42,814 nt of DNA, taken from Sphaeroforma arctica JP610 (lineage: Eukaryota). Position 1 is the first letter of the stretch, and the number at the start of each line of letters is the position of its first letter. The stretch lies in NCBI RefSeq assembly GCF_001186125.1, contig NW_014039770.1, positions 1 through 42,814 on the forward strand, written 5' to 3'. A program made the position numbers and the translations under genes. Shown here one piece after another: positions 17,857 to 41,388 of this stretch. The notes under the pieces were generated by a model. It was not told where the DNA came from and did no database searches. It worked only from the letters and a program-made list of their open reading frames with translations.

Positions 17857-18799
17857 TACGGCCTGCTAACCAAAACGATATATTTATATGTATAGTTGCT
17901 GGATTCGAGTTTCTCGGTCCGCCCAAGCCAAACAACCTCACACACTTAACTGCGAAGGGCATGTGACCACGAAGAAGATCTTTATTATTAATAAACCTTG
18001 CCGTACGTACCATAAAAGTTACCAAAGCCTGGACTGCTTTAGCAGTAGCCTAGAAATTTTCATTCATGTTTACGCATAACTAGTTCATTGATGTCCGGAC
18101 AAAACACTAGACATATCGTCCGTCGGGCTCCGTGGCCCGTATGGTCCTAAGCACACCTTTCCCATCTTCACGCCACTCTAGTGGAGAAATGCTGTCATAA
18201 ATCTATCAATCTATAGTAAAGTTGTAGATGAATGAATGTTACAAAGTATGTAGGAATGACCTATATCTGTACGCTGCTGATTGGTTCAACGACTGTCGAC
18301 AATCTGTGGTTTATTATATAAAATATCTGGGAATGCGACCAGTCGGCCACACGTTGACCGTTGTGCGGTACTTTATATATGGTGATACTTATGATATGTT
18401 TTGAAATGTGATACATTCAAATTTCAAGCAATCAAGGGGCGGAGTATACCTTGTAATATATTTAAAATACTTGGGACGCGTGAATTGACTTTATTAGAGT
18501 ATGGTTTTAGTTTAAAGGACAGGCCGGTAGGGCCGCCACAGGCCCGGGACGGCGGGGGCCCAGGCGCAGAGCATGACTGTGCACATGAGTATTCATGTTG
18601 TTTTAATTGTGTAATATTAGACTTTACCAACTCTAAGGCTACCAACAATACTGTTAGTGACCTGAGTAAGATACGTGACTTCTGTACCCAACTGTTTAAA
18701 CTGTAGTATATACCTATATAAATGCCCTTTGATTCTGTGTGTTGTCTTCTACTCACGAGTAAAGTTGTCTTGAAACTTCTTCAGATACCTTCAAGATGT

Positions 18800-21780
18800 G
18801 CGTGAGGAGAACAGATGAAAGAGAGTGAGGCGGGTTGGACGTGAGGAGAATAAATGGTTCGAAGGTCCTTCTGTTCTCTCGCTTTATACCATGTAGAAAA
18901 ACAAGAGAAGAGTCTTGAGAAGGAGTGACCAAGAGTCTTGATTTTCACAACCAGTGATAGTATCATCAGTGTTGGTAGTACGATCAGTGGTAATCTTACT
19001 CTATTGACGTCGTTCCAAAACAAGATGATTAAACATAAATAGCAGATTTCAATCTGCAGCCATTTATGTGTTGTTCTTCCAAACACCGCAGAGTCTTAGG
19101 GTGCGACGTTCTCGTTTAAGGAGCTTTCCGCTTGTGTGGGTATAATAGTCCGCACATGACTTTGTTCAGTATACGGTATTGAACACATACTGTGATGTGT
19201 CGACCGATAGGGCGCTGGCTACAAACCCTCGTCGAAAGGAATGTGTTGCTAGAGGTGTGACCAGTTGGAATGGGATACCAGCGGAGGATCTTTAGGTCGG
19301 TCTAAAAGCGGGCGTTCTGGGTTGGTGTGCCACAAATGTCGTCGCGATCATCATCCGTCGGCTGTACTGAATTTATGTCAACATTAAATACTCGCAAACG
19401 ATGGATTGTAATGCTGGCAATAGGTGCTGTGACAGAGTGTTGGAAATTTCTGCTTTGCTGGTCGTCCGTGTGCAGCGAAATCATTGCTCGATCGGTTGTG
19501 TCGCTTGCGACTTACAAAATAGTTTGTACCATTTCATCTACTGGACTGAATATGATGTGGATTGGACTGAATTTGTTATTCGAAGAGATCCGGGGTCCTA
19601 CCAAAAAGAAGTACGCTTGGTACTCCAGAAGACTGCATATACCCAACCAGAGTATTCTAGTCAGAGCACTTTGTCTGGCTGAACGCGTCCCTCTAAGGTA
19701 TAGATAGACTTGTATGCCGTTTTAAGTCCATTCCACATGTCAATTGAGAGGTTACCATATGAAGTCTTGGTGTCACCTGCAAGTGCTTTGCTTTGTTTAA
19801 TCATCACTGAGCTTACAATGTGAGTTCGTTGTAGCTTCATGTGTCATTTGAGCATATGGTAAACCAGGTATTTGATGGTGCCTTCACGTGTGACCGTTTG
19901 CAGCGATCGATCTCCACATACTATTGTCGTGCGGTACTAGCTGTAATGCGGTTCAAATTAAGCCGATACTGAAATGAGAATATATCGATCCCCGCTAAGT
20001 ATGCGGGTCGATGAGAATGACCACGTCTGCGGGATAGTGAACCTCGCCAGACTCTAGCATATGCATGTCGAGTGCAAACTATACTAGCAGTGGCCATTAA
20101 TGCACTTTAGGCCACAGTGATGCAAATATCACTGTAGATGTGTGTTGTACCTTCAACCGAAGGAGGATTTTGACATCATAGACTTGGAGGCATCAATATG
20201 CACACTTTTTTGTTCGTGTAGCCGACGTGCCTCCAGTGGGCCCAGTGTCCAGCTTTATTTGTATTTCAATAGCTTCTCTTTGAGGGACAACCGATCCGCG
20301 GCGCATTTGAGGGTCCCCAGTATATCAGATCTGTCGGCCACAAGGCTTAAAGTCGGTATACCGTCGATGTCAGGGTAAGGAGTTTAATTCAGTAAATAGT
20401 TGGAGGACTGTCTGCGGAGTAGAGCCGCGAGCGCTGTTGTCGAATCCGCTAGTATTAGAACTGGTATGTGTGGTTTTAGCAGGGGTTTGCTCCAGTGGTG
20501 CTGGAGACATCGTTTATCGTACGATGGTACGTACTGATTGACTAACTGGATTCTTGTAGGGATCATGTCCGAATAGTGAGGATCCCAACACTGTGTGCAC
20601 TTTGGGTATTGAAGAAATATATCTCGAGGTCGACGGTTCTAGAGGGCGTATGTCAGTTTCTCAAGTTTGCGAAATGCTGCTCCTGACAAACAAATTCTGG
20701 ATCCTAACTGCGCTGTCGTGGGTTGTAGAGGTGTTGAAGGTTTGCCTTGTCATCTGAGACCAGCCAGGTAGGGTTGTGCTGAAGGGACTACAAACGTTGG
20801 TCACTGTATTAATCCGAAGTAGCGGTACCAAGCTTCCAGGCTGACATACCGCTGCTTGGGCAATAGGCGTTGTTAGATGTTAGAAGATTCGAGTGTCAGT
20901 TTGTTCAATGGCTTGTGTTAGTCGGTACTGGCCGGCCGTCATACCGATATCGACTCCTAGGTGGTCCAGCTTCCGCAACGGTGCCTTCCAGTGGCCTTTT
21001 TCAAGTGTCAAGCGGAGGTTTAGCTACAATACTATTTGGTCGATCCGATTCCGATGTTGAGTGATTCGTGTGATACAAACCATAAGCAACAGGTCGTCCG
21101 TGTCGTCCGTGTATACACTCTTTCCTGACTAGTTTTCTGAATACATCTGGGAATTTGGAAAAACAATGGGGACTGAAAGTGGCTCCCGTAGGGAGCATTA
21201 TATACTCGTATAGTTGTCTCTTCACTCTCTTGGGTCCTCTCATTTGCCACATTTGGGTTCGGGTACTTTTAAGGGCGAAGAAAGCCGTCGCGAAAGTCTG
21301 ATGTCGGAAGGGTGGGCTGTGGTCGCGAGTAACTCTAAACCCTCCATTTTGAACTTTGGCGCCTGAGTATAATTCTGGCTCTGTTGTTCGATTTTGCTAA
21401 ATCGAATAAGTCGTGTATGCAACGGTCTTCGCCCTCGTCTACTTGTCGTATTCAACCGGCTGTTTCTTGTCGGTCGAATGGATACCGACGGTGACCCCAC
21501 GGGATCCCTACTCCACTATGGATCCATTCTATCATCTATTTCGAGGCTCTGGCTTTTCGCCAGGCTACTAGCTTGGAGCTGGCCGAATCGAAGCGCGATG
21601 GAAGGTACACTCTAGTCGATTGCAAATCTACGAAAAGGAGGCAGTTTGTGGAGGTTTCTGAAAACCTCCAACATACGTCCCTGACTTCGTTTTCTTGGTT
21701 GACGCCTTCCTTTGTACACTGTCGTATTGTCGTTAGTGATGTAAGCGTCGGTTTGCCGACACATAAAATTTTCAAAGCGT
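18800..21780 (-). mobile_element. Heavily decayed non-LTR retrotransposon (LINE-like); RT core ~19850-20580; outer limits uncertain
   Basis: Eroded RT motifs in correct order on the minus strand: SDMIPTRI (~20550, like GPDGIP), YRL*AL (~20350, like YRPISL), VHIDASK-YDV (20171-20203, like DxxKAFDSV), GLKC..PLL..ALD (~20070-20115, like GxxQGxxLSPLLF), YPADVVIL (~20015-20040, like YADD), EGTIKYLV (~19862-19885, like KYLG). Many stops and frameshifts. Confidence 0.6.
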
Positions 21781-22085
21781 AAACGTGTCTATTGTCTAAG
21801 CATATTTTTTAAAGCAATTGCGATAGTAGTCGATTGATAAGAATCAGCAATACTCTGGGGGATTAGAAATATTGCTTTAAAACAATCATCTCAATACTGA
21901 ATTCGCCGAGAGGGTTTTATATATGTTTTCGTCGTCGTGCTTGGCAAAAAAATGTATTATTGTTTTTAAAACTAAACAAGATAGTATCTTTAGCAAAAAG
22001 GGTATATATTCTCTAAGCATTACATTACCCAATGACTAGCCACGCATTAGGAATTACTAGCGCGCTATCATCAGACTGGTAGTCT

Positions 22086-22138
22086 GGGTTTTTAGGGTTT
22101 TTAGGGTTTTAGGTTTTAGGGTTTAGGGTTTAGGGTTT
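22086..22138 (+). repeat. Interstitial telomere-like repeat (T3-5AGGG)n
   Basis: gggtttttagggtttttagggttttaggttttagggtttagggtttagggttt. Confidence 0.8.
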
Positions 22139-22199
22139 AAAGCTCGAGAGATAAACTTTGTATCACTAATAGTCCCTAAAATCCTATTTTCAGTTGAGC

Positions 22200-24345
22200 C
22201 ATGTCGCTACTGAAGTATTCAGATACAAGTCGTTAGAGAATTAGTTGGCCTTTCAATGAATGGGCTTACTCCAAATAGCTAATTTATAAAATGAAATAGG
22301 TATCTATAAAAACATTAAACCCCATTTGGAATAGTTTGCGTACATCTTGAAGTTCCAAAGGCCGTCTGCTTGTTGCTTGTTTAAGTTCATATAATCCACG
22401 CTTGAGACGAAGCACACTTCCTGGGGGATAGTGACCGAGGTTAATAGCACCCTTGGGGATATGTGTATACTGGCGTGTCAAGTTTACTATATATGAAGGT
22501 TGTATCAAGAAGTGATGGATAACCTTGTCGGAAGCGGCAGCGACAGCAATGAAGAGGCGGAAGAGTAGCGGCAGAAGTAGCAGGAGAGTAGGTGCCAAAG
22601 TATAAGTGCTCATTTTCTTGTTCATCACCTCGTGCGACCATGCGAGCTTTGTATATAGTGGGGTGTCCATCAGAGTGTATGATTTTGGCACTTGTAGTGA
22701 CTTGGTGAGCTTGAATAACGCCCGCGAGATTGTTGCGAGCATAGGCATCAAATCAAAGGGACAAATTAGGGAGGTTCACGACTGTTAGGACTGGATTTAA
22801 GAACACTATCATCGAGCATGGATGCCATTTCAAATAAAGTAACTTCGGAGGAAGAGGTCGGAAGAACAAAAAAAGCAGTAGATGCAAGAACTTTTTCAGC
22901 GTGGGTGGGCGGGCCATCGTCAGTAGAAGAAGGAGAGGGAATAAAAACCAGGAGGTAGAGCGTATGTGATATGCGCCTGGGCGCTAGGGGCGTGGGGAAG
23001 CTCGGACTTGACATCAATGTAGTTAGGCCATTCTATATTACGCGGTTGGTAGCCAGTTGTCAGCAGAGGAAAAATCACCGTGGGTGGAGGAAATAGTGGA
23101 TACAAGGACCAAAGCTGGGATATAGGAATAGGAGTAGAAGTCGGCGTGCTCGAAGGTATATGAGGTTACGTAGAGCGAAGCATCAATGATGGATGATGAT
23201 AAGTCCAAAATTCGTAATCATATGCAATGACACGTTGACAGGTGCGATATTCAGCAATAGCCTGCTTGCGAGCATGTAATTGAGCATGGACGTCCGAGGA
23301 AGACGACCACCAAGCAGGAGCAGCGGGTGAATGTACAATCGAGGTTATGTTCAATATGAACGATAATCAAAAGCTGAAGAGTGAGAACGAGAGGTGCACG
23401 AGCCGTTGTTATTGCAAGTATAAATAAGGGAAGAGAAATGATGATCAAGGGCATCGTGATACTGAACGGCTTGGGCTGCATTGCCATCAGTTGAAGCTGG
23501 GAAGGGATGAAATGCGGACCTACCAGACGCTGGAGACGGGGGATCAGTGACCTGAGAAGAAGGCAGAGATGCAAAGGGATCTCTTGTAGCTGAGAAGCTA
23601 GCTTGAAGGCGGTGAGGTTGTGGGCTGTTGTGATCAATAGTAACAGGGATGTGTGTATTATGGGGGTGGGTAGCACGACTTTTGGAGTGGTGGCAGGGGA
23701 TGTTGTGGTGGTGGCAGGGGATGTTGTGGTGGTGGCTGTGGTCGTGAGTATGGATGGTGAAGTGACTAGAAGAGGCGTAGTGCTGAGATATAGGGACTGG
23801 CGGCAAGGTGGAGCCAGGGATGGTAGCCGGGCTGTGCCAGAGAGTGAGAATAGTGTTCGAGGTGGAATGGTTAGAACGGGTAGCTCGCTTGGCATGAGCT
23901 GACCACTGTGCTCATCACGTAGAATCAGAAACGCGGCAATAAAGCATATGTCGAGTAGCAAAATTTTGGAAGCGGTATATATCGACTGTGCAATTGAATG
24001 TTATACTAAGGAAGACTCCCAAGGCCAACATGTACTATAATTGTGTCTTTTTGAGTGAATCATCGGATAGACAAAAATGCACCTTTATTTATAGCCAAGT
24101 GTGCTGTAAGGTCCTTTGCGAAATTCTTTTGATGAAATAATTCGCAGAACTCCAACGAAGCAAAAGCATACCAGCGCTCAGGAGAGCCGTGTTACGTGTA
24201 AAGACGTTGAGGGTGCCTTGTGCGCGTTCGACGCGGTTGTTAGGCTGAAGCGTGCTGGAAGGATATCTGTAAGGAGCTTATTTCTTTATTTCTTTAATTT
24301 AAAATACACAGTCGCCGTCAGCAATAGTGGCATGTGACTTCCTGC
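22200..24345 (-). mobile_element. Decayed Ty1/copia pol fragments (integrase C-terminal half, SH3-like segment, Pro/Thr linker, reverse transcriptase)
   Basis: Minus strand: PSSTLQPNNRVERAQGTL...ALLSAGM..RW (~24150-24265, integrase E region), GVFLS...YRF (~23970-24020), IDVKSELPHAP...YALPPGF (~22950-23020), IYKARMVARGDEQ...TYSP (~22585-22660), LDTTFIYSKLDTPVY, SVLRLKRGLYELKQA (~22375-22420). IN-before-RT order is the copia arrangement. Confidence 0.8.
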
Positions 24346-24749
24346 TCNNNNNNNNNNNNNNNNNNNNATCATGGAATATGTACAATGAGGGCCTTGATGT
24401 GCTTGCGCATGTTCTGTTTGTTCTTGAGGTGTGAGTGAATGGCATATTTAGTGCCATCACAAAAGAGATTCAGAGTGTATTTGCTACCATCACGTCTTTC
24501 AGGCATGTAACCTTGAAGGTTTATATGAATTGTTTGCCAGGGTTATGCGATGTATCTGTGGTTGCGTGTTGGACATGTTTGTTTTATCACAGCACTTAGA
24601 AATCATTTGCAGTACGCGGGCATCGAGAGCCAATATCGAGGCAAGAAATAGCATAATTCTGTGATACAAAGGGATCACAAAACTCATATGTACGACAAGT
24701 AAGAAGGAAATAAAGACTACTTGGAATCATAGATTTGTGTGTTTTAACA

Positions 24750-26330
24750 GGTTATAGGCCTATGCTAGTACACACGGTAGATAGCTTTCTATAATTAACA
24801 CACGGTGACAATTGCATTGACCAGTATCCTAGAGGTAAACACACGAATACGAACACGACTACGCTATACAAAGCAATATCAGCTTTATGCAACACATACT
24901 TGAAGAATTCCAAATCAATCAACTGAACACCAATGAATAATCCACACTATCAAAAAGAATCTGCACCCACACCCATGGCAAATACACAACCAGATTAAGC
25001 TATAGTACAACCTACCCCTAGTATCACAATCATCGTGTACGTCGACAATCTAGTTGCAATCGGCGAACACAACACTACATCACATTGGTGAGCAATCTGA
25101 TTGAACTCCTGTTATTTGCCTGAAGGCTTCAACTCAGGCAACGAAGTAATCGCTGTCGCAGTACGCATCTGGTCTGTATGTACAGTTTACAGAACAATAG
25201 AAGGATGTAACACTCATCTCAAAAATATCATCCAACGTGTCAACGAATGTGGCATCAAGAAAGGATCACTAACCACACAAGCCGTACGCGGTATAGCACA
25301 ACTTGACACCATATACACACAATACAACGATACACGACATAAGTAAGATACATCGATAGAACAGTTCGATCCTCTTGGAGAGGAGCTGATCTACTTAGGC
25401 CACGAACATACCAAAATTACGCAAAACTCATAGGTCGATACCATGACAAGAATGAAGAACATGAATTACTCCCACGAAAGATGAATGAGCTCGAGGATAA
25501 ACTAGTTCAGACACAATCTAAACTGTATCTCAAGGAAGAGAACAAACCGTTTAAGCAGGCTTTAGAATCAGAAATAAACAACTTGACAGCCGATCTGTCT
25601 CAGGCACATATGGAGATCAAACAACTGCGTGTCTCTGCTGTAACCCATACAAGCAGCAGACAGCAATTGCCGACGTAAACTGATTAATTCTCTCGACAAC
25701 TCTCAACACAGTTTACAAACCTCATCTATCTAAACCACCACACAAGCTATTTGCACACATTTGCAGACCCAACAACACTGGTAGCAATAGAGGGTTCTGG
25801 TCAACACTACACGAACCCACTAGTTTCAAATCTAGCAGATCAACCGAACAATCCATGCAGAAGCTAGAAGAGATACGACAGCGCTCGATAGATATAGGGA
25901 AGCAAGTCCCTGAAAAGTACCTTACATATGCACTACTATACAGTTTCTCAGACGAGTATAATGCTCTGTAGCGATATGTTCAAACTTGATACCAGCAAGT
26001 TAACAATCGATGAAGCATATACTATGGCACTGAAGTTCGAAGGTGACACTTAGATATAGAAGAGAAGCCTAACGGTGAGCCCAACCGCATCCTTGCATTC
26101 CAGTAGAGCAATGACGACAAAGCCAAGAAACCCAAGCCTACCCCTAGACCATGCCCACTTTGCAAAGAAGTAGGACACAACATTTACACCTGTCCAACCT
26201 CAATATGTCAACGCGGTTGCGCATCAGACCACATGGGTAGCAAATGCACAGAGGATTGGAATTAGCTGATTTGTACGAAGTGCACTAGGGCAAACCACAG
26301 GGGCCAAGCGTGTATGAAGTGAAGGAACGA
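24750..26330 (+). mobile_element. Decayed copia-like 5' portion: PBS-like motif, coiled-coil gag N-terminus, gag core and three CCHC-type zinc knuckles
   Basis: ...ttaaca|ggttataggcct at 24750 (LTR end followed by a GGTTATGGGCC-type PBS). Gag remnant IGKQVPEKYLTYALLYSFSDEY (~25890-25960). Knuckles CPLCKEVGHNIYTC, C..GCASDHMGSKC and CTKCTRANHRGQAC (26152-26313). Paralogous to the gag at 27287-28100. Confidence 0.65.
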
Positions 26331-27286
26331 GGTCCAGGACAAATGTATCACATCAAGTAGTATTGAGCGCCAAAGCCAAGAGATGATTCCGACATGATAG
26401 CATAGTTGAGGGGCTGTACAGGGGCGCCAGTCAGTATGAATTAGACAAACCATAGCAATAAATGTGTGTGACGGATGAAGGTATGTTCCTTGTTGCGTAT
26501 GATGTATGGTTGTAAGTGCAATCGATATGTAACAGTGTTTCACCATCTCACACATGAAGGAACTGTTATAATCATGACGAGTAATGTGTCACATGATGCA
26601 TTAACTGTTATAAATTCAAAGATATGTTACCATTTAGCATTAGCATAGCGGATATTGTAGTCAATAAATGAACTTTGTGCCAATCGTCGACGACACCTCC
26701 GTCTAGGCCAGTAAAGAGCGGTAGTTTTAGGGTTTAGCTAGCATTCACACGTGACTATTGATCTCGATGTCCCGTATACAGCAATCTTGTGTCTGCTAAT
26801 ACACACTTAATCGCAATCGGTAAACTCATCGATGAACTACGTATAGACCGCCAGGAAGTGTACGTCTCTACAACTGCAGCCTTGGCACTTCTGACATTTA
26901 CTACAAGCGACCTGTACCACGTACGTAAACACAATCAAGATTTACAGACTGAGCTTGACGGTTCAAACGCCATAATGTGCAACTTGGGGAATAACATAAT
27001 CTACTTTTAGCTAAACACGAAACACTGAACAGAACACGCGCAACTCTCCGACAGTCATACAAAGACTCAATCACGCCTCTAAGAACAAACAGACCAATCG
27101 ACTGACAAACCCAGTGCTCTTCAGGCTGAGCTCAATTACACGCGCATAGAACTCCAAGAAAAACTCAATATAATCGATCATCTAGAGCGCGCAACCAAGC
27201 CGAAACCAGCCACGTATGCCGACAAGTACGGTATCACTGCCGACGATCCTAGTGTTGCGCTTTCAGAGTGACCAAAATACAAAGAG

Positions 27287-28100
27287 ATGTACAAGCGCAC
27301 TAAATTGGAGAATTGGGAGAATTTCGGACCTTGTATAATAAGACTCAAGATGGAGCTCGCACGTTGTGGTGTTCTTCATCGCCTCCACCCTGCCTCTGAC
27401 AAGATATGTGGTACCGACGTACTAGTCGATGCACGATGCCGTCGTATTATGATCGACTCCATTCAGGAAGAGCTCATTAACACTGTATACAAGAACCACT
27501 ACTCTAAGTCGCCTTCCGAATTCTTTACCTATATCTGCATCACAAACAACTCTGGTAGTCACGGACGCTTCTGGGACTGCATGCAACGCCTTTTCAACTT
27601 TAAGGCATCAGGTACCACAGAGAAGACCATGCAGGCTTTGGAGGAAATTTTCCTAGGCCTCCTCGATGCTGACGAAGTTATTCCAGATGAATACCTTATC
27701 TGTGCTCTACTTTATAGTCTGGTTAACGAATACCAGCTCCTCCGATCCAATGTCTTCGATCTCGACACCGACAAACTCGATGTCAACGAGGTCTATCGCA
27801 TGCCTCTTAAATTCGAAGATGACCACCAAATTTCCGCATGCAATACTGCCACAGGAATCAACGCGCTCACTACGAAAGATTTGAATGAAGCAAAGGACAA
27901 ACGTTCACCTCGTGAGATCACATGCCCCTTATGTAAAGACATCGGTCACGGTATCGACTGCTGCTGCAAATCAATCTGCCGCAGATGCGGCTCCAGGGAT
28001 CACATTGGCAAGAAATGTCTCGTCGACAGTGCGACTCTCACATGTAGCAAGTGTGACAACAAAACAGGCCGAACAACTGAAGATACGGAGCCCTATCCAC
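27287..28100 (+). pseudogene. Copia-type gag with zinc knuckles (within ORF 27287-28492)
   Basis: KLENWENFGPCIIRLKMEL..CG (like KLxGxNYxxWxxxMxxxL), gag core and CCHC knuckles. Confidence 0.7.
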
Positions 28101-28654
28101 AGGAACTCATGCTGTACATAGTTTCACAACTCCCCGCCCTGCTACTCCACATGATCTACCTGAGTGCCACTATAAGCTTAATATACTCAATGCTACCTCA
28201 CAAGGGCCCGCGCAAACGTTACCCTTACTGCTTCACTTATCGACTCCGGAGCAGTGGTTCATATACGTTCCACACAGATGGCGTCAAAGAATTACACACT
28301 GGTTGCTTTATCGTAGAGTTCCCTGTTAAGAGTCAAATTATCCTTAATCCCAGGCCTTGGCCCAGTTCTTATTATGCCAACCGCGACTCAAAATATTTTA
28401 TTCGTACAATTACTACAACGACACAATTATGGCATATATTTCCCGCCGGAACCGAATGCCTCCGTTCCCACCGAGTGTTGCATACTCGATAACAAGTCTT
28501 ACATCCTATCCCAACCCACAATGGCCAATACACAGCGGCCAGCTTCACAGCCAGCACCATTGAGAACTGACAAGACCGGTTAGGACATCGATCCGACACA
28601 CCACAAACGCTGTCTCAGAGCAACATCACGCCTACCCCCCTACCCAAGCCTTCG

Positions 28655-29085
28655 CACGATGACTGGATGTTGAATCCTACTCTCGTTCAAAAACACGTCA
28701 CTGATGTCTTCGGCGCGATAGACATCGATCTATTTGCGCAGAAACACAATACACAGGTCTCTATCTATTGTAGCCTGGAACAAGATACACCATTGCATGA
28801 CGCCTTCAAACAGTCATGGAATCAACCAAACACACATCTTCACGGTAATATACTTTTTCGTATCAAAACATGGTGCGAGGCACTTCACAAGCTTGAAAAG
28901 GAATATGGCCTTATTACAATGGTCTTTCCACTTCAACCTAACATACACAACTACAACCAGACGAAACTTCAGTTACACTCATACGTAGAAGTCATCAAAA
29001 CCACCGCCGATACATTCTTGCAATCTGGCACCGAGATTCCCGGACCACCTAAGTGGCGATATATCTGCATTGCTCGAGTGGTCAG
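28655..29085 (+). pseudogene. Dam-like DNA N6-adenine methyltransferase domain in copia pol (motif IV reads NILF)
   Basis: DDWMLNP...FGAIDIDLFAQKHNTQVSIYCS...DAFKQSW....LHGNILF...LHKL...TMVFP...FLQSGTEIPGPPKW follows the DIRS/phage Dam pattern W-L...DLFA-x3-N...DA-x3-W...NPP[FW]. Confidence 0.75.
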
Positions 29086-29599
29086 TACTATACACACAGT
29101 TCCACCAACAACAGAGCTCCTAGACGCCAAGGCCAAATGCACATATCGTCCGCGCGCCACCCCTGTGCCCGCAAATGCGCAGACGTCCAGTGTCACGCAA
29201 AACAAAGGACGAGAATACTTTGCCACCAGTTGGAATGTCTTTCATGTTGACCTACACACGGGTTTACCTGCTTTCCCGACTGGCTATGCATACAACATCA
29301 AATATGTAGATGCTAATAGCGGACAACCTTTCATCTATCCACTCAACCACAAAGACGATACCAGTGCAACATTAGACCTCTTCTACACTGACATAGGCAA
29401 GACTACCTCGCAAATCTCCGAGAACTCAAATGCGATCGTGGTGGAGATTTTGTCTCCAAGGATTTTACCCGTATCAACACACTCCAGCACGTTATCTAGC
29501 CTAGGAGAAGACCACATTGAAGTATGCGAATGATAGAATCATTGGCCAATTTAAGTGGAAAAGAATCAGTTTTAAGTGTAAAAAAATTATTCCAGTGCT

Positions 29600-30450
29600 A
29601 CTGTCTATAATAGTGCACATGCGGACTAACGGATAAGAAAAGTTGTCTGATTTGTGGTTTTTAGCTTGACAACTGTCGCAAACCAGAGGTCCAGCTGCAA
29701 TCCTTGTCATATGGCGCTTAGTACCACAGCGACCACAGCCACGCATATACACATTGACAGTACGGTTTGTTGGCCAGTAGATAAAGCACGGTGAGCGTCC
29801 GGCTGGTGGACGCGTGCGGGTGCGGTGTGGTAGGTAAAGTGAATGACTGAATTAACCAACCTAGTATTAGGTTTGTTTGTTGAGTCATTTACCTTATTTA
29901 CTACAAAACTGGAAAGTGTTGCGAGTACTTCGATCTTAGTCCACACGATCCGCTTCTGGGAGGATTTATCTTAACCTTCCCCGTTGGGTGATAGTGCTGG
30001 CTTACCACCGGCTGATTCGCTCCTATCACAAAATTTACCCAAGACGAGATTATGACTGAACCACCCAACCTAAACCAACCGACCTGGTACTTGCCATGTC
30101 TGCGAGAAACAGCTCTTATTTTTCGGTTTTCCTTCAAGGCGATCAGAATACTTAACGAGTTGCTGAGATGTGGCTTCAGTTGACGAGAGGACTCTCTTTG
30201 CTTGACGAGAAGGGCAAAGTGCCGCTACTTTGGGCGCATTGAGAAAGTTAGGATGTTTGGATATTTGCAGTTGAGCAAGAGTAGTCTTGACGCCACGACT
30301 AACCAAGAATTGGCAAGTTTATCCCTGCTGCTTAGGCTAGAGACCAATAGGAAAATATCGATATTAAAAATCATCAGTGGAGATAAGAATTCCGCGTCGG
30401 GGCGTCTTAGAGCTTGGTGCGACGAGCGGCCTATGTACGCATGTGTTCAT
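29600..30450 (-). mobile_element. Decayed gag/LINE-ORF1-like remnant with two zinc knuckles, abutting the truncated copia integrase
   Basis: CGRCGTKRHMTR-C and CDSCQAKNHKSDN (~29640-29740), preceded by ..WTKIEVLATLSSF; broken by frameshifts. Confidence 0.5.
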
Positions 30451-30599
30451 CAGCCTCACGTTTAAAAGTAGTATCCAAGATGGGGTAGCTAGGTGCCCTT
30501 GGTTGAGGGAGCTTACTACCTCATCAGATAGATATTAAATAATCAGAGATTGCGCCTTAAGGTATTTGCTGTCCTCTCGGTATACAGGAAGGAATATAT

Positions 30600-31478
30600 A
30601 CTTGCCAAATGGTCCGTGGGAGGGTAGGATGACGGAGCGGAGTCAGAGCATGTAAGAGTTCATTTTCGATCTCTGCTGACACCCGGTGCGAACCTTCCCA
30701 GAGGTCAATATTGAGGCCATCCTTGACAAGGACAGTCCAGGACACCGTAACGCCCTTTCTGGTGAGCTGAATACTAGATAAGATAATGTCAATATTATCT
30801 AAAATAGGCCCATAACCTAAAGATACCTATGTACGGATTTACTAAAAGACCAAACTCCATTGTTGATACTAGGTAAGGCTTATAATAAATTTATTGGTCC
30901 TGTTGTCAATTCAAAGTGGACCATGCTGGTTTTTTGTAAACCAAGCTGGTTTCTTGTAAAACAGGATGTGGGGAAAAACCCATGAGTTGGGGGTTTGGTA
31001 GACAGGACTAGGTTTTACTCCGATAGTGACTTGCCAAATGGTCCGTGGGAGGGTAGGATGACAGAGCGGAGTCAGAGCATGTAAGAGTTCATTTTTGATC
31101 GCTGCTGACACCCGGTGGGAGGTGGTATCCGATATTTATTCAGATGTTGCTTTCCCAGAGATCAATATTGAAGCCATCCTTGTCAAGGACAGTCCATGAC
31201 ACCGTAGCGCCCTTTGTGGTGAGCTGAATACTAGATAAGATAATGTCAGTATTCTCTAAAATAGGCCCATAACTTAAAGAGACCTATGTACGGAGTTACT
31301 CAAAGACCAAACTCCATTGTTGATACTAGGTAAGACTTATAATAAAGCTATTGGTCCTGTTGTCAATTCAAAGTGGACCATACTGGTTTCTTGTAAACCA
31401 TGCTGATTTCTTGTAAACCATGCCATGAGTTGGGGGTTTGGTAGAAAGGAATAAACTAGGTTTTACTCCGATAGTGAG
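30600..31478. repeat. Two tandem ~430-450 bp diverged copies (30600-31028 and 31029-31478)
   Basis: acttgccaaatggtccgtgggagggtaggatga starts both units and ctaggttttactccgatagtga ends both. Confidence 0.9.
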
Positions 31479-31750
31479 GCTGTGGCCTGTGAGTGACTGG
31501 GTGTGGGCCTGTGCCCTGTGAGCCCGTGAGGCCATGAGCATGTGAGGCCGTGGAATCGTGGACGTGAGGCATGAGGCGTGAGGCTTAAGGCAGGAGAAGC
31601 GGACTCTCTCGTGGCCCCGTGTGGGCAACTGGGACCTGGGTATCGAATACGGAATAATCGCAGTCAAACAGCAGCCAGCAGGTCGCAACTCGCAAGTCGC
31701 AGCTCGCAAGTCGCAACTCGTGACTGAGTACTGACTCGTCACTTCAGCAG
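31478..31750. repeat. GC-rich 7-nt-period low-complexity repeats
   Basis: Runs such as gtgaggc/gtgggcc/atgaggc and gtcgcaa/ctcgcaa/gtcgcag. Confidence 0.6.
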
Positions 31751-32033
31751 TCGTCACAACGATGCTCATTTTACGTCCTTTTTTAAATTAAAAAAAAGAA
31801 GGAACATTGCCAAACGCGGAAATGCCAAATTGCCAATACATACCAGTGATATTTACCACTGATACCAGCTTCTCAGGGCTGTAGCCTGTAAAAGTGTAGG
31901 CTTTACGCCGCTGCGGTAGCAAGTAGCCGCCTGTAGGCCGTAGGGAGTGTAGGCTTCGCGGGCGCCTTCGCCTTCGCTGACGCTCTTTTAACACACACAC
32001 AAGTCAAAAGTGACACAAGAAGAAAATGAAGAA

Positions 32034-32877
32034 TGTAGTGCGCGAAATTGAGTAATTTGTGCTCTATATGGTTTAAGGAAAACCACCTTGTGGCAGAGAA
32101 AAGCTTTGTTAATTCGCACTGTTTACTACTCAAGTTGTAAACCTCTATAGTTGTTAGAATGAACTTATGGGCACACTTTATCTATACTTATACAGTATAA
32201 TCAGTAACTTGTGCACAACACTCAGTGTCCACTATAATAATCTACAAGATATATTACTGCATATTTAGATAACCTAGCATTAGTCTAAGCGTCTTCCACC
32301 GTAACTTATACTCATGTCGACATCCAATAGTCTTTCTAAAGGTCGATCGTTCAACAGAGCCTTGCTCATCACATCCTTCATAAAGCAACATCCATAACTT
32401 CACTCACATGTGCGCATCATCATCTTATGGCTTCACATCTGTATATTCTGAGTTCAGGTATGTATACTTCGATGTATACTGTACGATATACTGTTTTCCA
32501 CTAATCAATCTTTATCTGATGTTCATAACATCGATTCGTTATGTCGTGTGAACATCACATCTGCTCTTATCACATCATCACATTTCATCACTGCCGTGTT
32601 ATCAGGTAGTTGCACATATAATGCTGTTCTTATATCACGTACTAACCTGTTATATGCTTGTTAATAATCCTCATTCTCCAAAATGTGCCTTCTTCATGTT
32701 CAATACCAGAATCTCATATATATTATATTATCACATGTGTGCTTATATTAACCTCAACATCACAAATTATATTCTCATGTATAAATTATATATGCCTAAT
32801 ACCACACTGAAAATTATTTCATATTGGAGTAAACTTCTTCTGAATGGAATGTGGCAGAGTACGATGTGCGCATTACA
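32034..32877 (-). repeat. 3' LTR (844 bp)
   Basis: Starts tgtagtgcgc and ends gcgcattaca (10-bp imperfect inverted termini); colinear with 40602-41388; followed by cgccccctcc (PPT complement). Confidence 0.85.
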
Positions 32878-34389
32878 CGCCCCTCCACAGAGACAAGTAC
32901 CGTAATACGCGTCTCTGTGGATTCTGCACAGTGTTACCTGACTGTAGTATGAACATATATCAGCCCAATGGCATAGAACAATATACATATACAGTCGCCA
33001 GCATATCAGAAAATTCAAACATCACTTGTAGAAAACAGCAACACGAAAAATACAACACGTATGTGCCTGACCGCTTTAAGTAATTGTGTTGTGATTTCTT
33101 GTGTGACAAACACGACAATTCCGCAATGGTACAAAATGCTGCAGAAATGTGTTTGGACGGACACCTATGTGAAAAAACATCATCATCAAATCACCACAAA
33201 AGCACAACAGAAGTTCCTCAGACCCATAAATCAGATATAAAGGGTGACTTACTACTAAAACACGAGATGCACACTGTAAAAACAGACTATAGCCGTCATT
33301 GCTATGTACAACATTTAATCTATCAAACATTACTCGTGGGAGGGAACGTTACGAACCCCTCATTACCCCACATAAACTCGGAAATAGAACCACTACCCGC
33401 GCATGACAATATCAATATCCGGCACGAGTTATATAGTCGTTTTGCAATCACGTACCGGGACTTCAACAGACGTGTTGCCCAAGTACCACGACCTTACTAC
33501 AACAATCGGCCCTTCCATGCACCCTTGCGTCAAACAGATCGGGGGAATCCTACTAAACTGGAGGTGTCCTATAGCGGATTCGAGAATAGTGACAACAGCA
33601 TGCCCGCACTATTGTCGGACAGTAGCGATCGTGAGAACGAGCAATCTCAAGCGCCTTCGAGAAACCTGGACAAGGCGCACGCATACTCGAACAAATGAAC
33701 AAACGCCTGGGATACCCACATCACCTCGTAGCATTCATAAACGTGCAGCCTACCGCAATGTCCGAGCAAATAAACTAAGAGTCTTCATAGACGATATGAC
33801 ACTGGCAACCAGAGAACAAGGTATGCGAACAAATGTGACTTTGATTTTTTTATCATGTATAAAAGGTGCGGTGCTAATACAAATCGGTGGCCATTCAGGT
33901 CAACACAGAAATGTCGCATCGCACATGTATATCTAAGGGGCTATGACCACTGAGTTCTTCTTAGTAACGAATATATATATAAGTAATGTAATAGGTATAC
34001 TATTAAGATGAGATCATCTGGCGATACCAGTATCCTCATTCATCCAGTTGTCCATCTGCGTCTGGCGTAGTGATTGATTATAACCCATCTGTGTGCACAT
34101 TCGCAGCTGAGAATGGGAGACACCCGTAGATTTCAAGTATGTCACCAGCTCTGGCAAGAGCTCAAACGAGGTGACAATTGCGGTACACAATGTAGCACAA
34201 TGTTGCTCCTAGGTAGATCACACAGCTGTTGATATCGTCCCCAAACGGACCGCATCCGTTGGGCCCATTCCTTGGCTGCCTTGGATGTTAAGAAGTACAG
34301 GCAAGGCGATTAATATGTGTAGAGTCTGTCTCCTCATACTCATATTTATCCGTGTGGTAGTAATCGATGAAAGCACGATGTATCTTCAC

Positions 34390-35850
34390 TGTCTTATTCT
34401 TGTATAACAACACGTGAAGAGTAGTGCTTTCATGTCCAATGGGTTCCGCAGGAGCATACCAGTGGGCACATAGTTTATGATGGCCAATGTCACGCCAAAA
34501 TCAAACTGTTGTTCCTACTGGGATTTGTGGTGTGTCTCGCCGCGACTTGTCTGCGTTACATTGTTGTGTAAGCCGTCGTCGTGTATACAAACGAGTTGCA
34601 ATACGGTCTCTGATGACCGCAGGAAGGCCAATATCCTCGACTAGCATAGTACCAATCTTATCCTATAAGGTCAATTGTTTGGACCCATCGTACTACCAGT
34701 ATGAAGAAAGAAGGGAGAAAAGTCTGTCTGCGGCACGACTGTGGCATTATGGGCTGACGCCGCTGCGTACACATTCGACACCCAGTCATAGTATGTCGAT
34801 GACTCATTTAGGGGGCCATCCACTCTTCCTGAGTGCGTATAGCCCTCTCTACCCTTTCATTTCATCCATGATGTGCGACTGAAGTAAGATGCACAAACAT
34901 GCCTTGCTCTAACGTTCCGCAGAAGCATACCAGTGGGCACATAGTTTATGATGGCCAATGTCACGCCAAAATCGAACTGTTGTTCCTACTGGGATTTGTG
35001 GTGTGTCCCGCCGCGACTTGTCTGTGTTGCATTGTTGTGTAAGCCGTCGTCGTGTATACAAACGAGTTGCAATACGGTCTCTGATGACCGCAGGAAGGCC
35101 AATATCCTCGACTAGCATAGTACCAATCTTAACCTATAAGGTCAATTGTTGGGACCCATCGTACTACCAGTGTAAAGAAAGAAGGGAGAAAAGTCTGTCT
35201 GCGGCACGACTGTGGCATTATGAGCTGACGCCGCTGCGTACACATTCGACACCCAGTCATGGTATGTCGATGACTTATTTAGAGGGGCCATCCACTCTTC
35301 CTGAGTGCGTATAGCCCTCTCTACCCTTTCATTTCATCCATGATGTGCGACTGAAGTAAGATGTACAAACATGCCTTGCTCTAACGCGAAGTCTTTAAAA
35401 CCTCTTGCAATCGAATACACTATCCTTGTCAGCAGTAATTTGTTGAGGAAGCCCTCACGGAAACACTTGCTCACGCATGAACTTAATAACTCTCATAGAG
35501 GTTTTCATTGCTTGCGTAAAGATGCTAACCACTAATAGTTTATACATCTTATATACTGCTACCAGTACCGAGGATTCGCCAGTAGGAGCCATTGGAATGT
35601 CCACGACGTCCAGGCTCCAGTTGGCGGTAATGACCACTGTTCGCTCGGGTTGATGCAACAATCCTAAAGATTCTGGAGGTGGCCTCCCATACTGCTGGCA
35701 TTGTGCACACACCCTTCCTATCATCCGCAACTGAGGTCGTAGATTGTCCCAACCAAGCACATCTTTGGTCAAGTACTTCAAGCGGGTCTGCGCGGCGTGA
35801 GCATACGCCAAGTGGAGGTACTGCAAGGATTTGACAACTTGGGCACCTGT
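34390..35850 (-). pseudogene. Gypsy integrase (HHCC zinc finger and rve core), frameshifted and partly duplicated
   Basis: HLAYAH...VCAQCQQ (HHCC), WSLDVVDIPMAPTGESSVLVAV (first catalytic D), later DWVSNVYAAASAHNAT. Confidence 0.8.
34443..35385. repeat. Tandem duplication of the integrase core 3' half (34443-34913 and 34914-35385)
   Basis: Two highly similar 471/472 bp units, each gttccgcag...gccttgctctaac. Confidence 0.95.
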
Positions 35851-36309
35851 CAGCTCCACACCACACAACTTGCGTGTTGGACATGCCAAAAGAACAGGCC
35901 AAGGGTCCGTTGGTAGAGGAATAGCCTTGCGTCGAAGTGCAGAGCCTGCTTCACTACCCGTTTCCGCCGTAGAGGCGACGTTTACTGACACAGCGATGAC
36001 TGGTATGCCACATGTCTCTACCCTTGCTTACTCTTGTTGGCGTCGTACATATTCTATAAAACATTGCTCAGTCTTAAGTAGTGCTTGATCTAAGCTTGAC
36101 ATTCCCTCCACTTCTATTGGTGGACAAGACCCTATGACTAAAGAAGCAGCTACTTGTCGCGCCCCATTCCTCACAGCTTTGTGATCCATCTGTACCTTAA
36201 CAGCTAATTGCGTTTGTGATGGCGTACGAGGCACTGTATCCACGACGTCTTCTCCACTAGCCAAGGCTTCGCACTTTCTCCCTATATCGGCACTCAATTG
36301 TATCGTCTT

Positions 36310-36717
36310 GGGCCTAATCTACAGATGAGAGTGACGAAGGACGGTGGCCCCGCATCTTCCCGACCGTGCCTATTGAATACTCCTGCACATTTCGGGATGA
36401 CTATAGGGTCGTCGGCCAATAAGCCAACCATAATCGAGAACCAACCTGTTCAGGGCCAATATGGACAGACTAACGTGCACCAGGCTTTTCTTCCTTTGCC
36501 TTCTGTACTACTGCTGGTAACAGAGTCCAAGGGGGATTAAAGAACCAGTTTACACTGGGGTCGCCCCAGTGTCGTACAAATACCCCCCCCCTTTTAACGT
36601 AGGAACACAGTAATTAGGGAGTATCGCATTGCCGGGGAGTGCAAACTCGTCAGCCGTATGTGGCCCCCAACGTTTATCGGCAGCGCGGAAGTATTGAGAC
36701 GTCAATTGGTATTCTTC
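36310..36717 (-). pseudogene. Dam-like DNA N6-adenine methyltransferase domain in gypsy pol, NPPW motif retained
   Basis: EEYQLTSQYFRAADKRWGPHTADEFALPGNAILPNYC, then after a frameshift NWFFNPPWTLLPAVVQKAKEE (NPPW at 36529-36540), TLVCPYWP*TGWFSIM and VFNRHGREDAGPPSFVTLICRL. Confidence 0.85.
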
Positions 36718-36799
36718 TGTGGAAGGCATAGACACCAGGGGATCAGCGAAGTGTACTCGAAGATCCTCACTGCCCCCTCTTAGGCGCAAAATAGGGTCT

Positions 36800-38040
36800 A
36801 TGGTGACACACAAACGTGATAACACATCTGCGACCGGACTGACCTCTCCGGGTATGTGAACTATTTCTACGTCGAAGTCGCGTACCACGTTAAAATATCG
36901 TCACATTTGTCTGCCTCTCATATCATACACGAATGACTCCCTAGGCTTATAAAATAGTACAACTAACGGTTGGTGATCTGTGTATAAACGTATTACTTTC
37001 GTCGTTCGTCTCAGTATCCGTACATTCTTTCGTATTCCATACACCAGGGCCAACGCCTCTTTATCAGAAATGTGACAGGCCTTCTGTGCCCCATCATAAC
37101 GCGACGAGAAGCTGACTGGAAGAAAGTTACCGTCTCTCAACACAGTAAGTACCCCACCTATCCCCACAGACTCACATGCATCTGCAAACATCACGAGTTG
37201 TTCTGTAGGAAGCGGTTCGACCAACACTGCACATTGCCTCAAAAATTCCACAATTTTGTGAAATGCTGCTCGTTGTGGTTCTTCCCATGTGAAAATGCTG
37301 TCTTCTTTGAGTAGTATGGCCACAGGTTGTAGTATCCTCGCAAAATTGGGCGCGTACTCAGCCCACCAACGTACTGTATGATACCATGACTTCAGTAGGT
37401 CTTTCGATGTTGGTTCACTAAGTTCTAGCAGAGCATGTAGACGCACATCATCCATTGTTGATCCTCTGTAGTCGACCAACCTTCCAATAACCACCACCGG
37501 AGTTCTATACTGAGCAACCATATATTTTGACAGTCTTTATTGCACATTATACCGTTGACACCTCTCCATGAACAGCTTGAGACACTACCAGTGTTCCATT
37601 GGGTCGTTGTGTGCAAATAATATGTCATCTATATAGCAGACCAGATTATCCAATCCTGCAAATATATCCTCCAACACTTGCTGACACCTCCATGATGCCT
37701 CCTTTAACACGAAGGGCATCCCTACAAATGAGTCTCTTCCAAATGGTGTTTTAAAAGACAAGTATTTATGTGACTGAGGCGCCACCCTCAACTGACAGAA
37801 TGCCTGACCCATATCCATGGTCGTTATATAGTTTTTGTTCTTTAACTTCGACAAATAGCCACGTTCTGTAGGTATATGATTAGGTATAGCTCTGAATTGT
37901 GTGTTTACTCTTTTCAAATTGACACAACACCGCCAATCGTCTACCACCACAGGTGTTACCCCCGGTTCTTGTAAATCAGATGGGGAGCTGAGCACCACTC
38001 GCTCTTCGTAATCTTCTCTGTGATGCCTGCCTTCAACCAA
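36800..38040 (-). pseudogene. Gypsy reverse transcriptase and RNase H
   Basis: DWRCCVNLKRVN, TMDMGQAFCQL, SFKTPFG...MPF.LK, CYIDDILF; FTWEEPQRAAF, FADACESVGIGGVL, PVSFSSR, KEALALVYGI, LYTDHQPL, DVEIVHIPGEVSPVADVLSR. Confidence 0.92.
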
Positions 38041-38633
38041 GCTGATACCTTCATAAATAACGCCTTTCCCCGTACTTCGTCGTTATAAAAGTAGCTTCAA
38101 TATTGAGGGACAGCATCATCGTTCTCATACAACACTAAGTCTGCTACATTCAGGAATTTGAGATGCATGGCATCGTACGCAACAGCCTCAAAGACGGCTA
38201 GTAAAGTGTGTGGTTCTTCTTTTGATGATGCTCACACTCTCTCCGCCAGCTTGTATATACCTACGGTTGCAAGATCTGGGTCCATCGCCTTATCTCAGAC
38301 CTCGTATTCCTGCTCATCATCCATCCACTCAGATGTACAGTAATTTTCACTAAGCCTAGGCAAAGCATGTGTGACTCCTGATGCACTCTTCCTCATGAGT
38401 TCCTCATCTTCCTCACATACTGTAGCCGCTATTATGTATTCCATCGCCAGTATTCGAGCTGAATCCATCAGCTCTTCTTGTGGTACTATCGTCAACACTT
38501 GTTTCCTCCAAACTATATGCCAACATAACTCCTGCAGACTTTGTATCCCACCAATAAGTCACAGTTCATGGGTATACCTGTTACCACCAAGCACTTCATA
38601 TCTATCATTTTCGTGTACGTCTTCCATGATGAT

Positions 38634-40601: not shown

Positions 40602-41388
40602 TGTAGTGCGCGAAATTGAGTAATTTATGTTCTATATGGTTTAATGAAAACCACCTTGCGGCAGGAAAAACCTTGTTTATTCGCATTGTTTAATGTACAA
40701 GGTGTAGACATCTATAGTTGTTAGAATCCATACTTATACAGTATAATCAGTAACTTGTGCACAATACGCAGTCTTCACTATAATTATCTACAATATGTAT
40801 TACTGCATATTTAGCCAACCTAACATTAGTCTAAACGTCTTCCACCGTAGCTTATACTCATGTCGACATTCAATAGTCTTTCTCAAGATCATTCGTTCAG
40901 CAGAGCCTTGCTCATCACATCATTTATAAAGCAACATCCATAACTTTACTCACATGTACGTATCATCTTCTTATGGCTTCACATCTGTATACTCTGAGTT
41001 CAGGTGTGTATACTCTAATGTCTACTATACGATATACTGTTTTCCATCAATCGATCTTTTTCTGATGTCCATAACATCGATTTGTTATGTCGTGTGAACA
41101 TCACATCTGCTATCATATTTCATCATTACCGGGTTATCAGGTTACTGCACATATCATGCTGTTCTTATATCTCGTACTAACCTGGTATATGCTTGTTAAT
41201 AGTCCTCATTTTCCAAAGTGTACCTTCCTCATGTTCAATACCAACATCTCATATATATCATGCTATCACATGTGTGCTTATATGAACCTCAACATCACAT
41301 ATATTATATTCTCATGTACCTAATACCACAATATTGGAGTAAACTTCTCTTGAATGGAATGTGGCAGAGTAACGATGTACGTAATACA
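40602..41388 (-). repeat. 5' LTR (787 bp)
   Basis: tgtagtgcgcgaaattgagtaattt...gtacgtaataca; colinear with 32034-32877, with many substitutions and indels. Confidence 0.85.

What the first reader, a model, noticed from the sequence alone, without database searches (positions are those of the whole stretch)
28655..36717. A related adenine-MTase cassette in two different LTR superfamilies within 8 kb: candidate family of self-methylating LTR retrotransposons
The copia (+, 28655-29085) and gypsy (-, 36717-36310) domains share their layout: [DE]-[WY]-x-L, then [FW]G-x3-D-x-FA-x3-N-x5-YC, then N-x-x-[FW], then T-[ML]-V-x-P, and a distinctive tail (TFLQSGTEIPGPPKWRYICIARV vs VFNRHGREDAGPPSFVTLICRL). 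Both lie N-terminal to the integrase core although pol order differs. Inference: repeated capture or exchange of one MTase subfamily under shared selection, such as mimicking an activating host 6mA mark or protecting cDNA. I cannot confirm novelty without a search.
Basis: partly seen in the sequence, partly recalled or inferred. Interest (0 to 1): 0.88.

Follow-up and report, generated by a model that had tools for sequence, protein, structure and literature searches.

The report
Copia retrotransposon carrying adenine methyltransferase domain
Two decayed jumping genes of different classes each carry a Dam-type adenine-methyltransferase domain; the gypsy kind was described in 2026, while the copia kind, with the domain wedged inside its integrase, appears undescribed and likely once methylated its own DNA copies.

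Summary
Both domains are real DIRS/Dam-type N6-adenine methyltransferase folds (profile 64 and 74 bits), about 25% identical to each other.

The gypsy element is complete but decayed (LTRs 90% identical, 4-bp target duplication). It has RT-RH-Dam-IN order and fits the ichthyosporean DAM-LTRs of a May 2026 preprint, so it is known; the scan also noted gypsy-Dam on other DNA.

The copia element is the new part. Its Dam sits inside the integrase zinc finger, between the HH and CC halves. Five more Sphaeroforma arctica proteins on other contigs belong to this family, in two divergent subfamilies. An unrelated intact copia polyprotein (P0011) carries Dam between integrase and RT. The preprint's main text never says 'copia', and no earlier scan note showed copia-Dam.

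All eight LTR-borne Dams grouped apart from DIRS-type ones (97/91), but support fell with an outgroup and alternatives were not rejected. Methylation is untested: this copy reads NILF at the catalytic motif, relatives NIPF and NQP. New variant of a known kind.

The parts
27272..28100 (+). Copia gag with zinc knuckles
   Evidence: Retrotran_gag_2 E 2.7e-5; CPLCKDIGH knuckle at 27923-27949
28218..28484 (+). Copia aspartic protease remnant (LIDSGA at 28236-28253), broken frame
   Evidence: 35% identical over 94 aa to the protease region of P0007; motif position
28565..28588 (+). HH half of the integrase HHCC finger. This copy reads stop-Q-D-R-L-G-H where P0004 reads W-H-D-R-L-G-H
   Evidence: gag_pre-integrs E 0.16 on P0004
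28658..29085 (+). Dam-type N6-adenine methyltransferase domain inserted in the integrase finger. DLFA at 28727; catalytic-motif position reads NILF at 28847-28858
   Evidence: Pfam Dam E 1.3e-4; 63.7 bits; AlphaFold2 pLDDT 84; best viral fold matches are phage adenine methyltransferases
29158..29178 (+). Damaged CC half of the finger, in a shifted frame (HPCARKC; P0005 reads CNPCFVGKC)
29231..29493 (+). Copia integrase core, frameshifted and cut off near 29500; no RT or 3' LTR found downstream
   Evidence: 81% and 87% identity to P0004 and P0005 in the last piece; rve E 0.001-0.004 on those proteins; E 3.7e-5 to copia protein P0047; no LTR-like pair in 17800-32000
40602..41388 (-). Gypsy 5' LTR (787 nt, TG...CA)
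37588..38079 (-). Gypsy reverse transcriptase (YIDD at 37635)
   Evidence: RVT_1 E 7.8e-11
36814..37290 (-). Gypsy RNase H, with one stop near 36901; ends ADVLSR
   Evidence: RT_RNaseH E 2.2e-12
36310..36720 (-). Gypsy Dam domain, NPPW motif kept (36538); two frameshifts (near 36590 and 36480) and one stop
   Evidence: best matches P0070 (36%) and Abeoforma P0041 (33%)
35300..35814 (-). Gypsy integrase: HH at 35814, CxxC at 35709, then D, D and E motifs in broken frames
   Evidence: Integrase_H2C2 E 0.18, weak; motif positions
32034..32877 (-). Gypsy 3' LTR (844 nt), preceded by a purine run; the element is flanked by a TTCT 4-bp duplication
   Evidence: 89.8% identity to the 5' LTR over 784 columns, K2P 0.11

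Best explanation
These are dead copies of two LTR retrotransposon families, one gypsy and one copia, whose Pol carries a Dam-type N6-adenine methyltransferase domain that in active elements likely methylated adenines of the element's own new DNA copy. Shown: the domains, their positions, and a multi-copy copia family with the domain between the HH and CC halves of the integrase finger. Inferred: the copia lineage captured the domain long ago, most likely from a gypsy DAM-LTR relative rather than from the neighbouring element. Inferred: because it is part of the integrase chain, it would travel with the cDNA in the pre-integration complex and mark the cDNA or the insertion site. Inferred, following the preprint's model: the host 6mA maintenance enzyme AMT1 would then keep the new copy in transcription-permissive chromatin. 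Untested: any catalytic activity.
For: Six different contigs carry the copia-family domain: the window, P0004, P0005, P0006, P0007 and P0009. 5 of the 6 show copia protease, HH, CC or integrase-core residues in the same protein. The domain starts 24-25 residues after the second His, where the first Cys sits in normal copia (24 and 27), and CxxC follows 33 residues after the tail in P0005. The P0007 subfamily is 35% identical in the protease region but 52% in the Dam N-half. Profile-conserved columns are kept preferentially against P0007 (19/29 vs 10/35, p 0.003) and P0004 (25/27 vs 20/36, p 0.001). P0006 reads NIPF, as does the intact gypsy polyprotein P0035, its best-tree neighbour (83/80). 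The model is confident (pLDDT 84) and matches phage N6-adenine methyltransferases (E down to 1.9e-7, TM 0.57-0.69 in the top ten). The preprint reports more 6mA and more expression on gypsy DAM-LTRs in S. arctica and A. whisleri (whole main text read).
Against: No intact copy of the copia family was found; all six are fragments or frameshifted. This copy has lost both prolines of the catalytic motif. The family also lacks the P-x-W...W motif of the C-half in the window, P0005 and P0006. The conservation test was not significant for P0006 (28/51 vs 37/83, p 0.16) or P0005 (13/17 vs 29/40, p 0.52). The preprint's TE Dams gave no 6mA in E. coli. ApT content of the elements is unremarkable (0.99-1.04 internal). 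The fold model relied on 57 DIRS-type rows and failed without them (pLDDT 30). The best solved-structure matches are RNA enzymes. The LTR-Dam branch drops to 79/85 and loses P0011 when a phage outgroup is added, and its members were found with the copia profile, which biases the sample.
Confidence: 0.5

Rival explanations
1. In the copia family the domain is a non-catalytic accessory: a SAM- or nucleic-acid-binding module that helps integrase hold the cDNA or choose target sites.
For: NPP is altered in every family member read (NILF, NIPF, NQP); the C-half tryptophan motif is lost; constraint is significant only in the N-half comparisons; the position inside integrase suits targeting.
Against: The Asn is kept in all four members that cover the motif, and the aromatic residue in the two where it can be read. 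NIPF also occurs in an intact gypsy polyprotein, P0035. NIPY and NLPY are active motifs in Erm and KsgA enzymes (recalled, not from a call).
Confidence: 0.25
2. The domain is active but methylates RNA or the RNA-DNA hybrid (genomic RNA, cap-adjacent adenine or primer tRNA) rather than the finished cDNA.
For: Top PDB fold matches are KsgA/Dim1 and PCIF1 (TM up to 0.66); there are weak PCIF1_WW hits on relatives; DNA assays in E. coli were negative in the preprint, whose authors raise a hybrid substrate.
Against: Viral-library matches are stronger and are phage DNA adenine methyltransferases; no solved structure of this Dam family appeared among the PDB matches; fusion inside integrase points to DNA.
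Confidence: 0.15
3. On origin: the copia and gypsy domains were captured independently from DIRS-type elements and share only generic features, so there is no LTR-borne subfamily.
For: 25% identity; low mutual rank (gypsy is 74th of 83 for the copia query); AU does not reject placing the copia family with the DIRS-type rows (p 0.197); similar tails occur in L015, L099 and P0069.
Against: Starred 97/91 branch around the eight LTR-borne rows; the best non-family match of the copia domain is gypsy P0035, which shares NIPF and the tail.
Confidence: 0.35
4. The copia-side domain is a one-off nested fragment of a DIRS or gypsy element that landed in a dead copia copy.
For: The region is a heap of decayed, nested elements, and this copy is truncated.
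Against: The same in-frame junctions occur on other contigs and in a subfamily only 35-52% identical; no RNase H or other donor residues flank the domain.
Confidence: 0.03

Closest known systems
DAM-LTR retrotransposons, Ichthyosporean lineage (Fernandez-Moreno et al., bioRxiv 10.64898/2026.05.21.726589; whole main text read, supplements closed)
   Same: Ty3/gypsy LTR element with a DIRS-derived Dam domain, reported from Sphaeroforma arctica, Abeoforma whisleri and Pirum gemmata, without a chromodomain; the same 6mA/AMT1 model. The window's gypsy Dam groups with Abeoforma P0041 and with P0070 (90/87).
   Different: The preprint's DAM-LTRs are Ty3/gypsy-like and were classified by RVT_1; 'copia' and 'Ty1' occur 0 times in its main text. 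It describes no domain inserted inside the integrase finger, and no copia with Dam between integrase and RT.
DIRS-element methyltransferase domain (Pfam PF05869 Dam; cited in PMC5890265 and PMC6338049, passages read)
   Same: Same domain and motif order; in the gypsy copy it follows RNase H directly, as in DIRS.
   Different: The hosts use a DDE integrase, not a tyrosine recombinase. The copia family has NIP/NQP/NIL at the catalytic motif and lacks the C-half tryptophans.
Retrotransposon-borne C5 cytosine methyltransferases (SymbioDIRS-Dnmt3, SymbioLINE-Dnmt, KnitGypsy-Dnmt3; de Mendoza et al. 2018, PMC5890265, passages read)
   Same: A methyltransferase captured in Pol, proposed to mark the element's cDNA.
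   Different: Different enzyme class (5mC). That paper states that Symbiodinium copia lack a DNMT domain.
Phage N6-adenine methyltransferases (Dam family, phrog_111) and PCIF1/CAPAM
   Same: Predicted fold; weak sequence hits (phrog_111 E 0.013-0.06; PCIF1 E 0.61).
   Different: Stand-alone or cellular enzymes; a two-sequence phage profile scores the window domains at only 15 and 0 bits.

Membership tests
Ty3/gypsy DAM-LTR (minus-strand element) | Direct LTRs with TG...CA ends and a target-site duplication | tested here: met
   787 and 844 nt LTRs, 89.8% identical, TTCT on both sides
Ty3/gypsy DAM-LTR (minus-strand element) | RT-RH-IN order with RVT_1-type RT and a DDE integrase | tested here: met
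   RVT_1 and RT_RNaseH hits; RT-RH matches gypsy P0035, P0041 and P0070 at E 1e-26 to 1e-31, while the five DIRS-type queries gave no RT-region hit at E 1e-3; integrase motifs (Pfam H2C2 only E 0.18)
Ty3/gypsy DAM-LTR (minus-strand element) | Dam domain with Asn-Pro-Pro triplet | tested here: met
   NPPW at 36538; 73.6 bits
Ichthyosporean DAM-LTR lineage | Dam falls in the clade of Pirum/Abeoforma/Sphaeroforma elements | tested here: inconclusive
Ty1/copia (plus-strand element) | gag-PR-IN order with copia-type gag, pre-integrase and integrase core | tested here: met
   Retrotran_gag_2; 10 of 11 integrase-core hits scanned carry RVT_2, gag_pre-integrs or Pol_BBD and none carries RVT_1 (27 of the 70 hits were scanned)
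Ty1/copia (plus-strand element) | RVT_2-type RT and RNase H downstream of IN; flanking LTRs | tested here: inconclusive
   This copy is cut off near 29500 and no LTR pair was found; none of the five relatives is long enough to include RT. Met in P0011 (RVT_2 E 8e-60), which is a different family
Eukaryotic TE Dam family (plus-strand domain) | Sequence and fold homology to DIRS-type Dam | tested here: met
   63.7 bits
Eukaryotic TE Dam family (plus-strand domain) | Asn-Pro-Pro catalytic triplet | tested here: not met
   NIL in the window and P0004 (frameshift at that spot in P0004), NIP in P0006, NQP in P0007
Active N6-adenine DNA methyltransferase | Methyl transfer to DNA adenine; raised 6mA on copies | not testable with these tools
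   No methylation data or assay was available
DIRS element | Tyrosine recombinase instead of DDE integrase | tested here: not met
   Both elements have DDE integrase parts; no Phage_integrase hit in the 16 window ORFs scanned

The most novel reading that the evidence does not exclude
Ty1/copia elements have captured an adenine methyltransferase at least twice: once inside the integrase zinc finger (Sphaeroforma family) and once between integrase and RT (P0011). The donor is a pool of Dam domains circulating among LTR elements. The integrase-embedded form is an active, tethered writer that stamps the host's activating 6mA mark on the cDNA or insertion site at the moment of integration.
Probability: 0.3. 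Interest if true: 0.75.

Novelty: new variant of a known kind. Interest (0 to 1): 0.52.

Why it matters
It extends Dam capture to a third retrotransposon group and suggests that an RVT_1-based screen missed it. A domain inside the integrase zinc finger cannot be cut out without breaking the finger, so it must stay with integrase. That ties its action to the pre-integration complex and narrows the open question of what retrotransposon Dam domains methylate. Public 6mA data for S. arctica (described in the preprint) allow a direct comparison of copia-Dam with Dam-less copia copies, and P0011 offers an intact NPPF enzyme in a full copia polyprotein for a bench test.

Tried and rejected
No whole genome is held for this window and no sequencing-run data were obtained, so copy number, DNA-level dN/dS, expression and 6mA are open.

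Searches that found nothing: word-index search for long relatives of the copia Dam (0 of 18 candidates) and of the gypsy Dam (0 of 10); related-locus scans of viral and metagenome contigs; phage tblastn (no match; only E 9 hits); PDB sequence searches (PCIF1 at E 0.61).

AlphaFold2 on a three-row alignment failed (pLDDT 30). VIA-align was not obtained. Atlas look-alikes gave a Dam cluster at 0.91 with Dam on 14% of members, a lead only; for P0011 they gave ordinary copia clusters with no Dam listed. Rfam gave only sub-threshold microsatellite matches and ARAGORN no tRNA; no primer-binding site was identified. Dinucleotide bias was uninformative.

Trees without other LTR-borne Dams left both domains as long branches in an open fork. 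Rejected: a DIRS identity for the gypsy element; a tail private to the pair; recent exchange between the neighbours (no DNA similarity beyond one 30-nt stretch). No complex prediction was run.
Full report
Setting. The window is eukaryotic DNA with (TA)n runs and gaps, a cytochrome P450 reductase gene and a nitronate monooxygenase gene, followed by a heap of decayed LTR elements. No genome is held for it. The closest named relatives of the copia region are Sphaeroforma arctica proteins at about 75-87% identity in the in-frame pieces, so the host is inferred to be that ichthyosporean or a near relative.

The observation. The plus-strand domain lies in one open frame and hits Pfam Dam at E 1.3e-4, below the curated cut-off. 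The minus-strand domain is split over three frames by two frameshifts and carries one stop; its first two pieces hit Dam at E 5e-4. The two align at about 25% identity, reached by 1 of 3000 and 0 of 3000 shuffles.

Reference set. After dropping short or unrelated reads and near-duplicates, 62 rows built a profile; one of them, L133, was a mis-binned phage sequence and was left out of later counts (61 rows). The pattern enforced the N-terminal motifs and my filter required the PP pair, so their conservation in this set is by construction. I checked 15 of these loci with Pfam: 12 have RVT_1 in the Dam ORF, 2 show a tyrosine recombinase, and none of the 28 ORFs shows rve. 'DIRS-type' is therefore a label from layout for most rows. 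The profile scores the gypsy domain at 73.6 bits and the copia domain at 63.7, and finds no third site in the window. With 57 of these rows as alignment, AlphaFold2 gives the copia domain pLDDT 84. Foldseek matches it to phage N6-adenine methyltransferases (13 hits at E<=1e-3) and more weakly to KsgA/Dim1 and PCIF1 in the PDB. This shows compatibility with the fold; it is not independent of the alignment.

The gypsy element. It spans 41388 to 32034, with TG...CA LTRs 89.8% identical and a TTCT duplication on both sides. The order is RT, RNase H, Dam, integrase. The catalytic motif NPPW is kept. Its best Dam matches among 83 rows are gypsy polyproteins P0070 and Abeoforma P0041. This is the kind described by Fernandez-Moreno et al. 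(bioRxiv 10.64898/2026.05.21.726589; whole main text read; supplements closed). That paper names an ichthyosporean lineage that includes S. arctica. Six earlier scan notes describe gypsy-Dam on other DNA (unchecked).

The copia element. It has gag, a broken protease, the HH half of the integrase finger, Dam, a damaged CC half and part of the integrase core, and then stops near 29500. Its integrase core is copia-type: 10 of 11 core hits scanned carry copia companion domains and none carries RVT_1 (27 of 70 hits scanned). The layout recurs on five other S. arctica contigs. P0004 runs HH-Dam-core, P0005 runs Dam-CxxC-core, P0006 is Dam plus linker, and P0007 and P0009 run HH-Dam, with the protease in P0007. 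Dam begins 24-25 residues after the second His, where normal copia have the first Cys (24 and 27 in two examples), and CxxC follows 33 residues after the tail in P0005. P0007 is a distant subfamily: 35% identical in the protease region and 52% in the Dam N-half, so the insertion is old. Profile-conserved columns are preferentially kept against P0007 and P0004 (p 0.003 and 0.001) but not significantly against P0006 or P0005 (p 0.16 and 0.52). The catalytic motif is atypical: NILF here, NIL plus a frameshift in P0004, NIPF in P0006 and NQP in P0007. The C-half tryptophan motif is missing in the three members that cover it.

A second copia with Dam. The same search returned P0011, an intact 1248-residue polyprotein seen on one 6.1-kb contig of unnamed origin. 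It runs protease, intact HHCC, integrase, SH3, Dam (E 1.4e-12, NPPF), RVT_2. The position differs from the Sphaeroforma family, which suggests a separate capture; a single origin is not rejected (AU p 0.27). It is a single record.

One subfamily or two? Pairwise, the window's two domains are no closer to each other than to DIRS-type domains (53 of 61 and 60 of 61 score as well or better), but both are decayed, which depresses their mutual score. Trees with only DIRS-type rows were unresolved. A 31-row tree (18 of the 61 loci chosen by hand, 11 search hits, 2 window rows) puts all eight LTR-borne Dams on one side of a 97/91 branch. In it the copia family is next to the gypsy chromovirus P0035 (83/80; shared NIPF and tail), and the window gypsy is with P0041 and P0070 (90/87). 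With a phage outgroup, seven of them stay together at 79/85 and P0011 moves to the long outgroup branch. AU tests reject none of four alternatives (p 0.13-0.27). The LTR-borne rows were found with the copia profile, which favours this grouping. The best estimate is an old gypsy-to-copia transfer within one LTR-borne pool; it is not proven.

How it most likely works. From established retrotransposon biology, integrase stays on the cDNA ends until insertion, and the HHCC finger needs both halves on one chain. A domain inserted between them is therefore carried to the integration site. The most likely role is to methylate adenines of the cDNA or nearby target DNA and so seed a host-maintained 6mA mark (0.5). 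A non-catalytic binding role (0.25) and an RNA or hybrid substrate (0.15) are live rivals. The copies in this window are dead, and none of this was measured.

Novelty. The gypsy half is known. For copia plus Dam I found nothing in print in seven of my nine library searches that addressed it (listings seen, plus passages of PMC5890265, PMC6338049 and PMC11673190). 'Copia' and 'Ty1' occur 0 times in the preprint's main text. Its classification rests on RVT_1, and its Dam cut-off of 1e-5 is stricter than my hmmscan values for this family (1e-4 to 5e-3; different search space, so this is inference). The library lacks most subscription journals, and the preprint's supplements and the repeat databases were not seen. 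Earlier scan notes show copia with C5 cytosine methyltransferases, none with Dam. Verdict: a real feature, half already described and half a new variant; interest 0.52.

Noticed in passing
P0011 (unnamed 6.1-kb contig): Intact copia polyprotein with an above-threshold Dam domain (NPPF) between integrase SH3 and RT; a second copia-Dam layout.
   Followed up: partly
window 36772-36789 (-): An exact LRLRGG hexapeptide, which matches the ubiquitin C-terminus (recalled), lies between RNase H and Dam in the gypsy Pol. It could be a host deubiquitinase cut site or chance. It was not found in the fetched proteins; 0 papers held it together with 'retrotransposon'.
   Followed up: partly
window 25668-26872 (+): Older copia gag copy, 59% identical at DNA level to 27437-27823, with a weak integrase-core hit at 26675-26872 (E 0.015) and no Dam hit; either a deleted copy or a Dam-less relative.
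   Followed up: partly
window 20300-24550 (-) and 25038-25049 (+): Further copia remnants: RVT_2 at 22287-22775 (E 1.6e-4), an integrase remnant near 24100-24550, and a YVDN RT motif at 25038. No Dam hit in any of them.
   Followed up: partly
window 34443-35386: 471-nt tandem duplication (97% identical) of the gypsy integrase C-terminal region.
   Followed up: no
window 30600-31477 and 29826-29905: A tandem pair of about 430-450 nt (84% identical) and an 80-nt imperfect palindrome lie between the two elements; origin unknown.
   Followed up: no
window 10140-14060 (+) and 16500-17856 (+): Host genes: NADPH-cytochrome P450 reductase-like (Flavodoxin_1 plus FAD_binding_1) and a nitronate monooxygenase in two pieces.
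   Followed up: no
L001:3737-5905 (-): A DIRS-type RT-Dam ORF inside a 30.6-kb contig of the viral collection; possibly eukaryotic DNA filed as viral.
   Followed up: no
P0035 / P0074 (unnamed 5.1-kb contig): Intact gypsy chromovirus polyprotein RT-RH-Dam-IN-chromodomain with an NIPF motif; nearest non-family relative of the copia Dam.
   Followed up: partly
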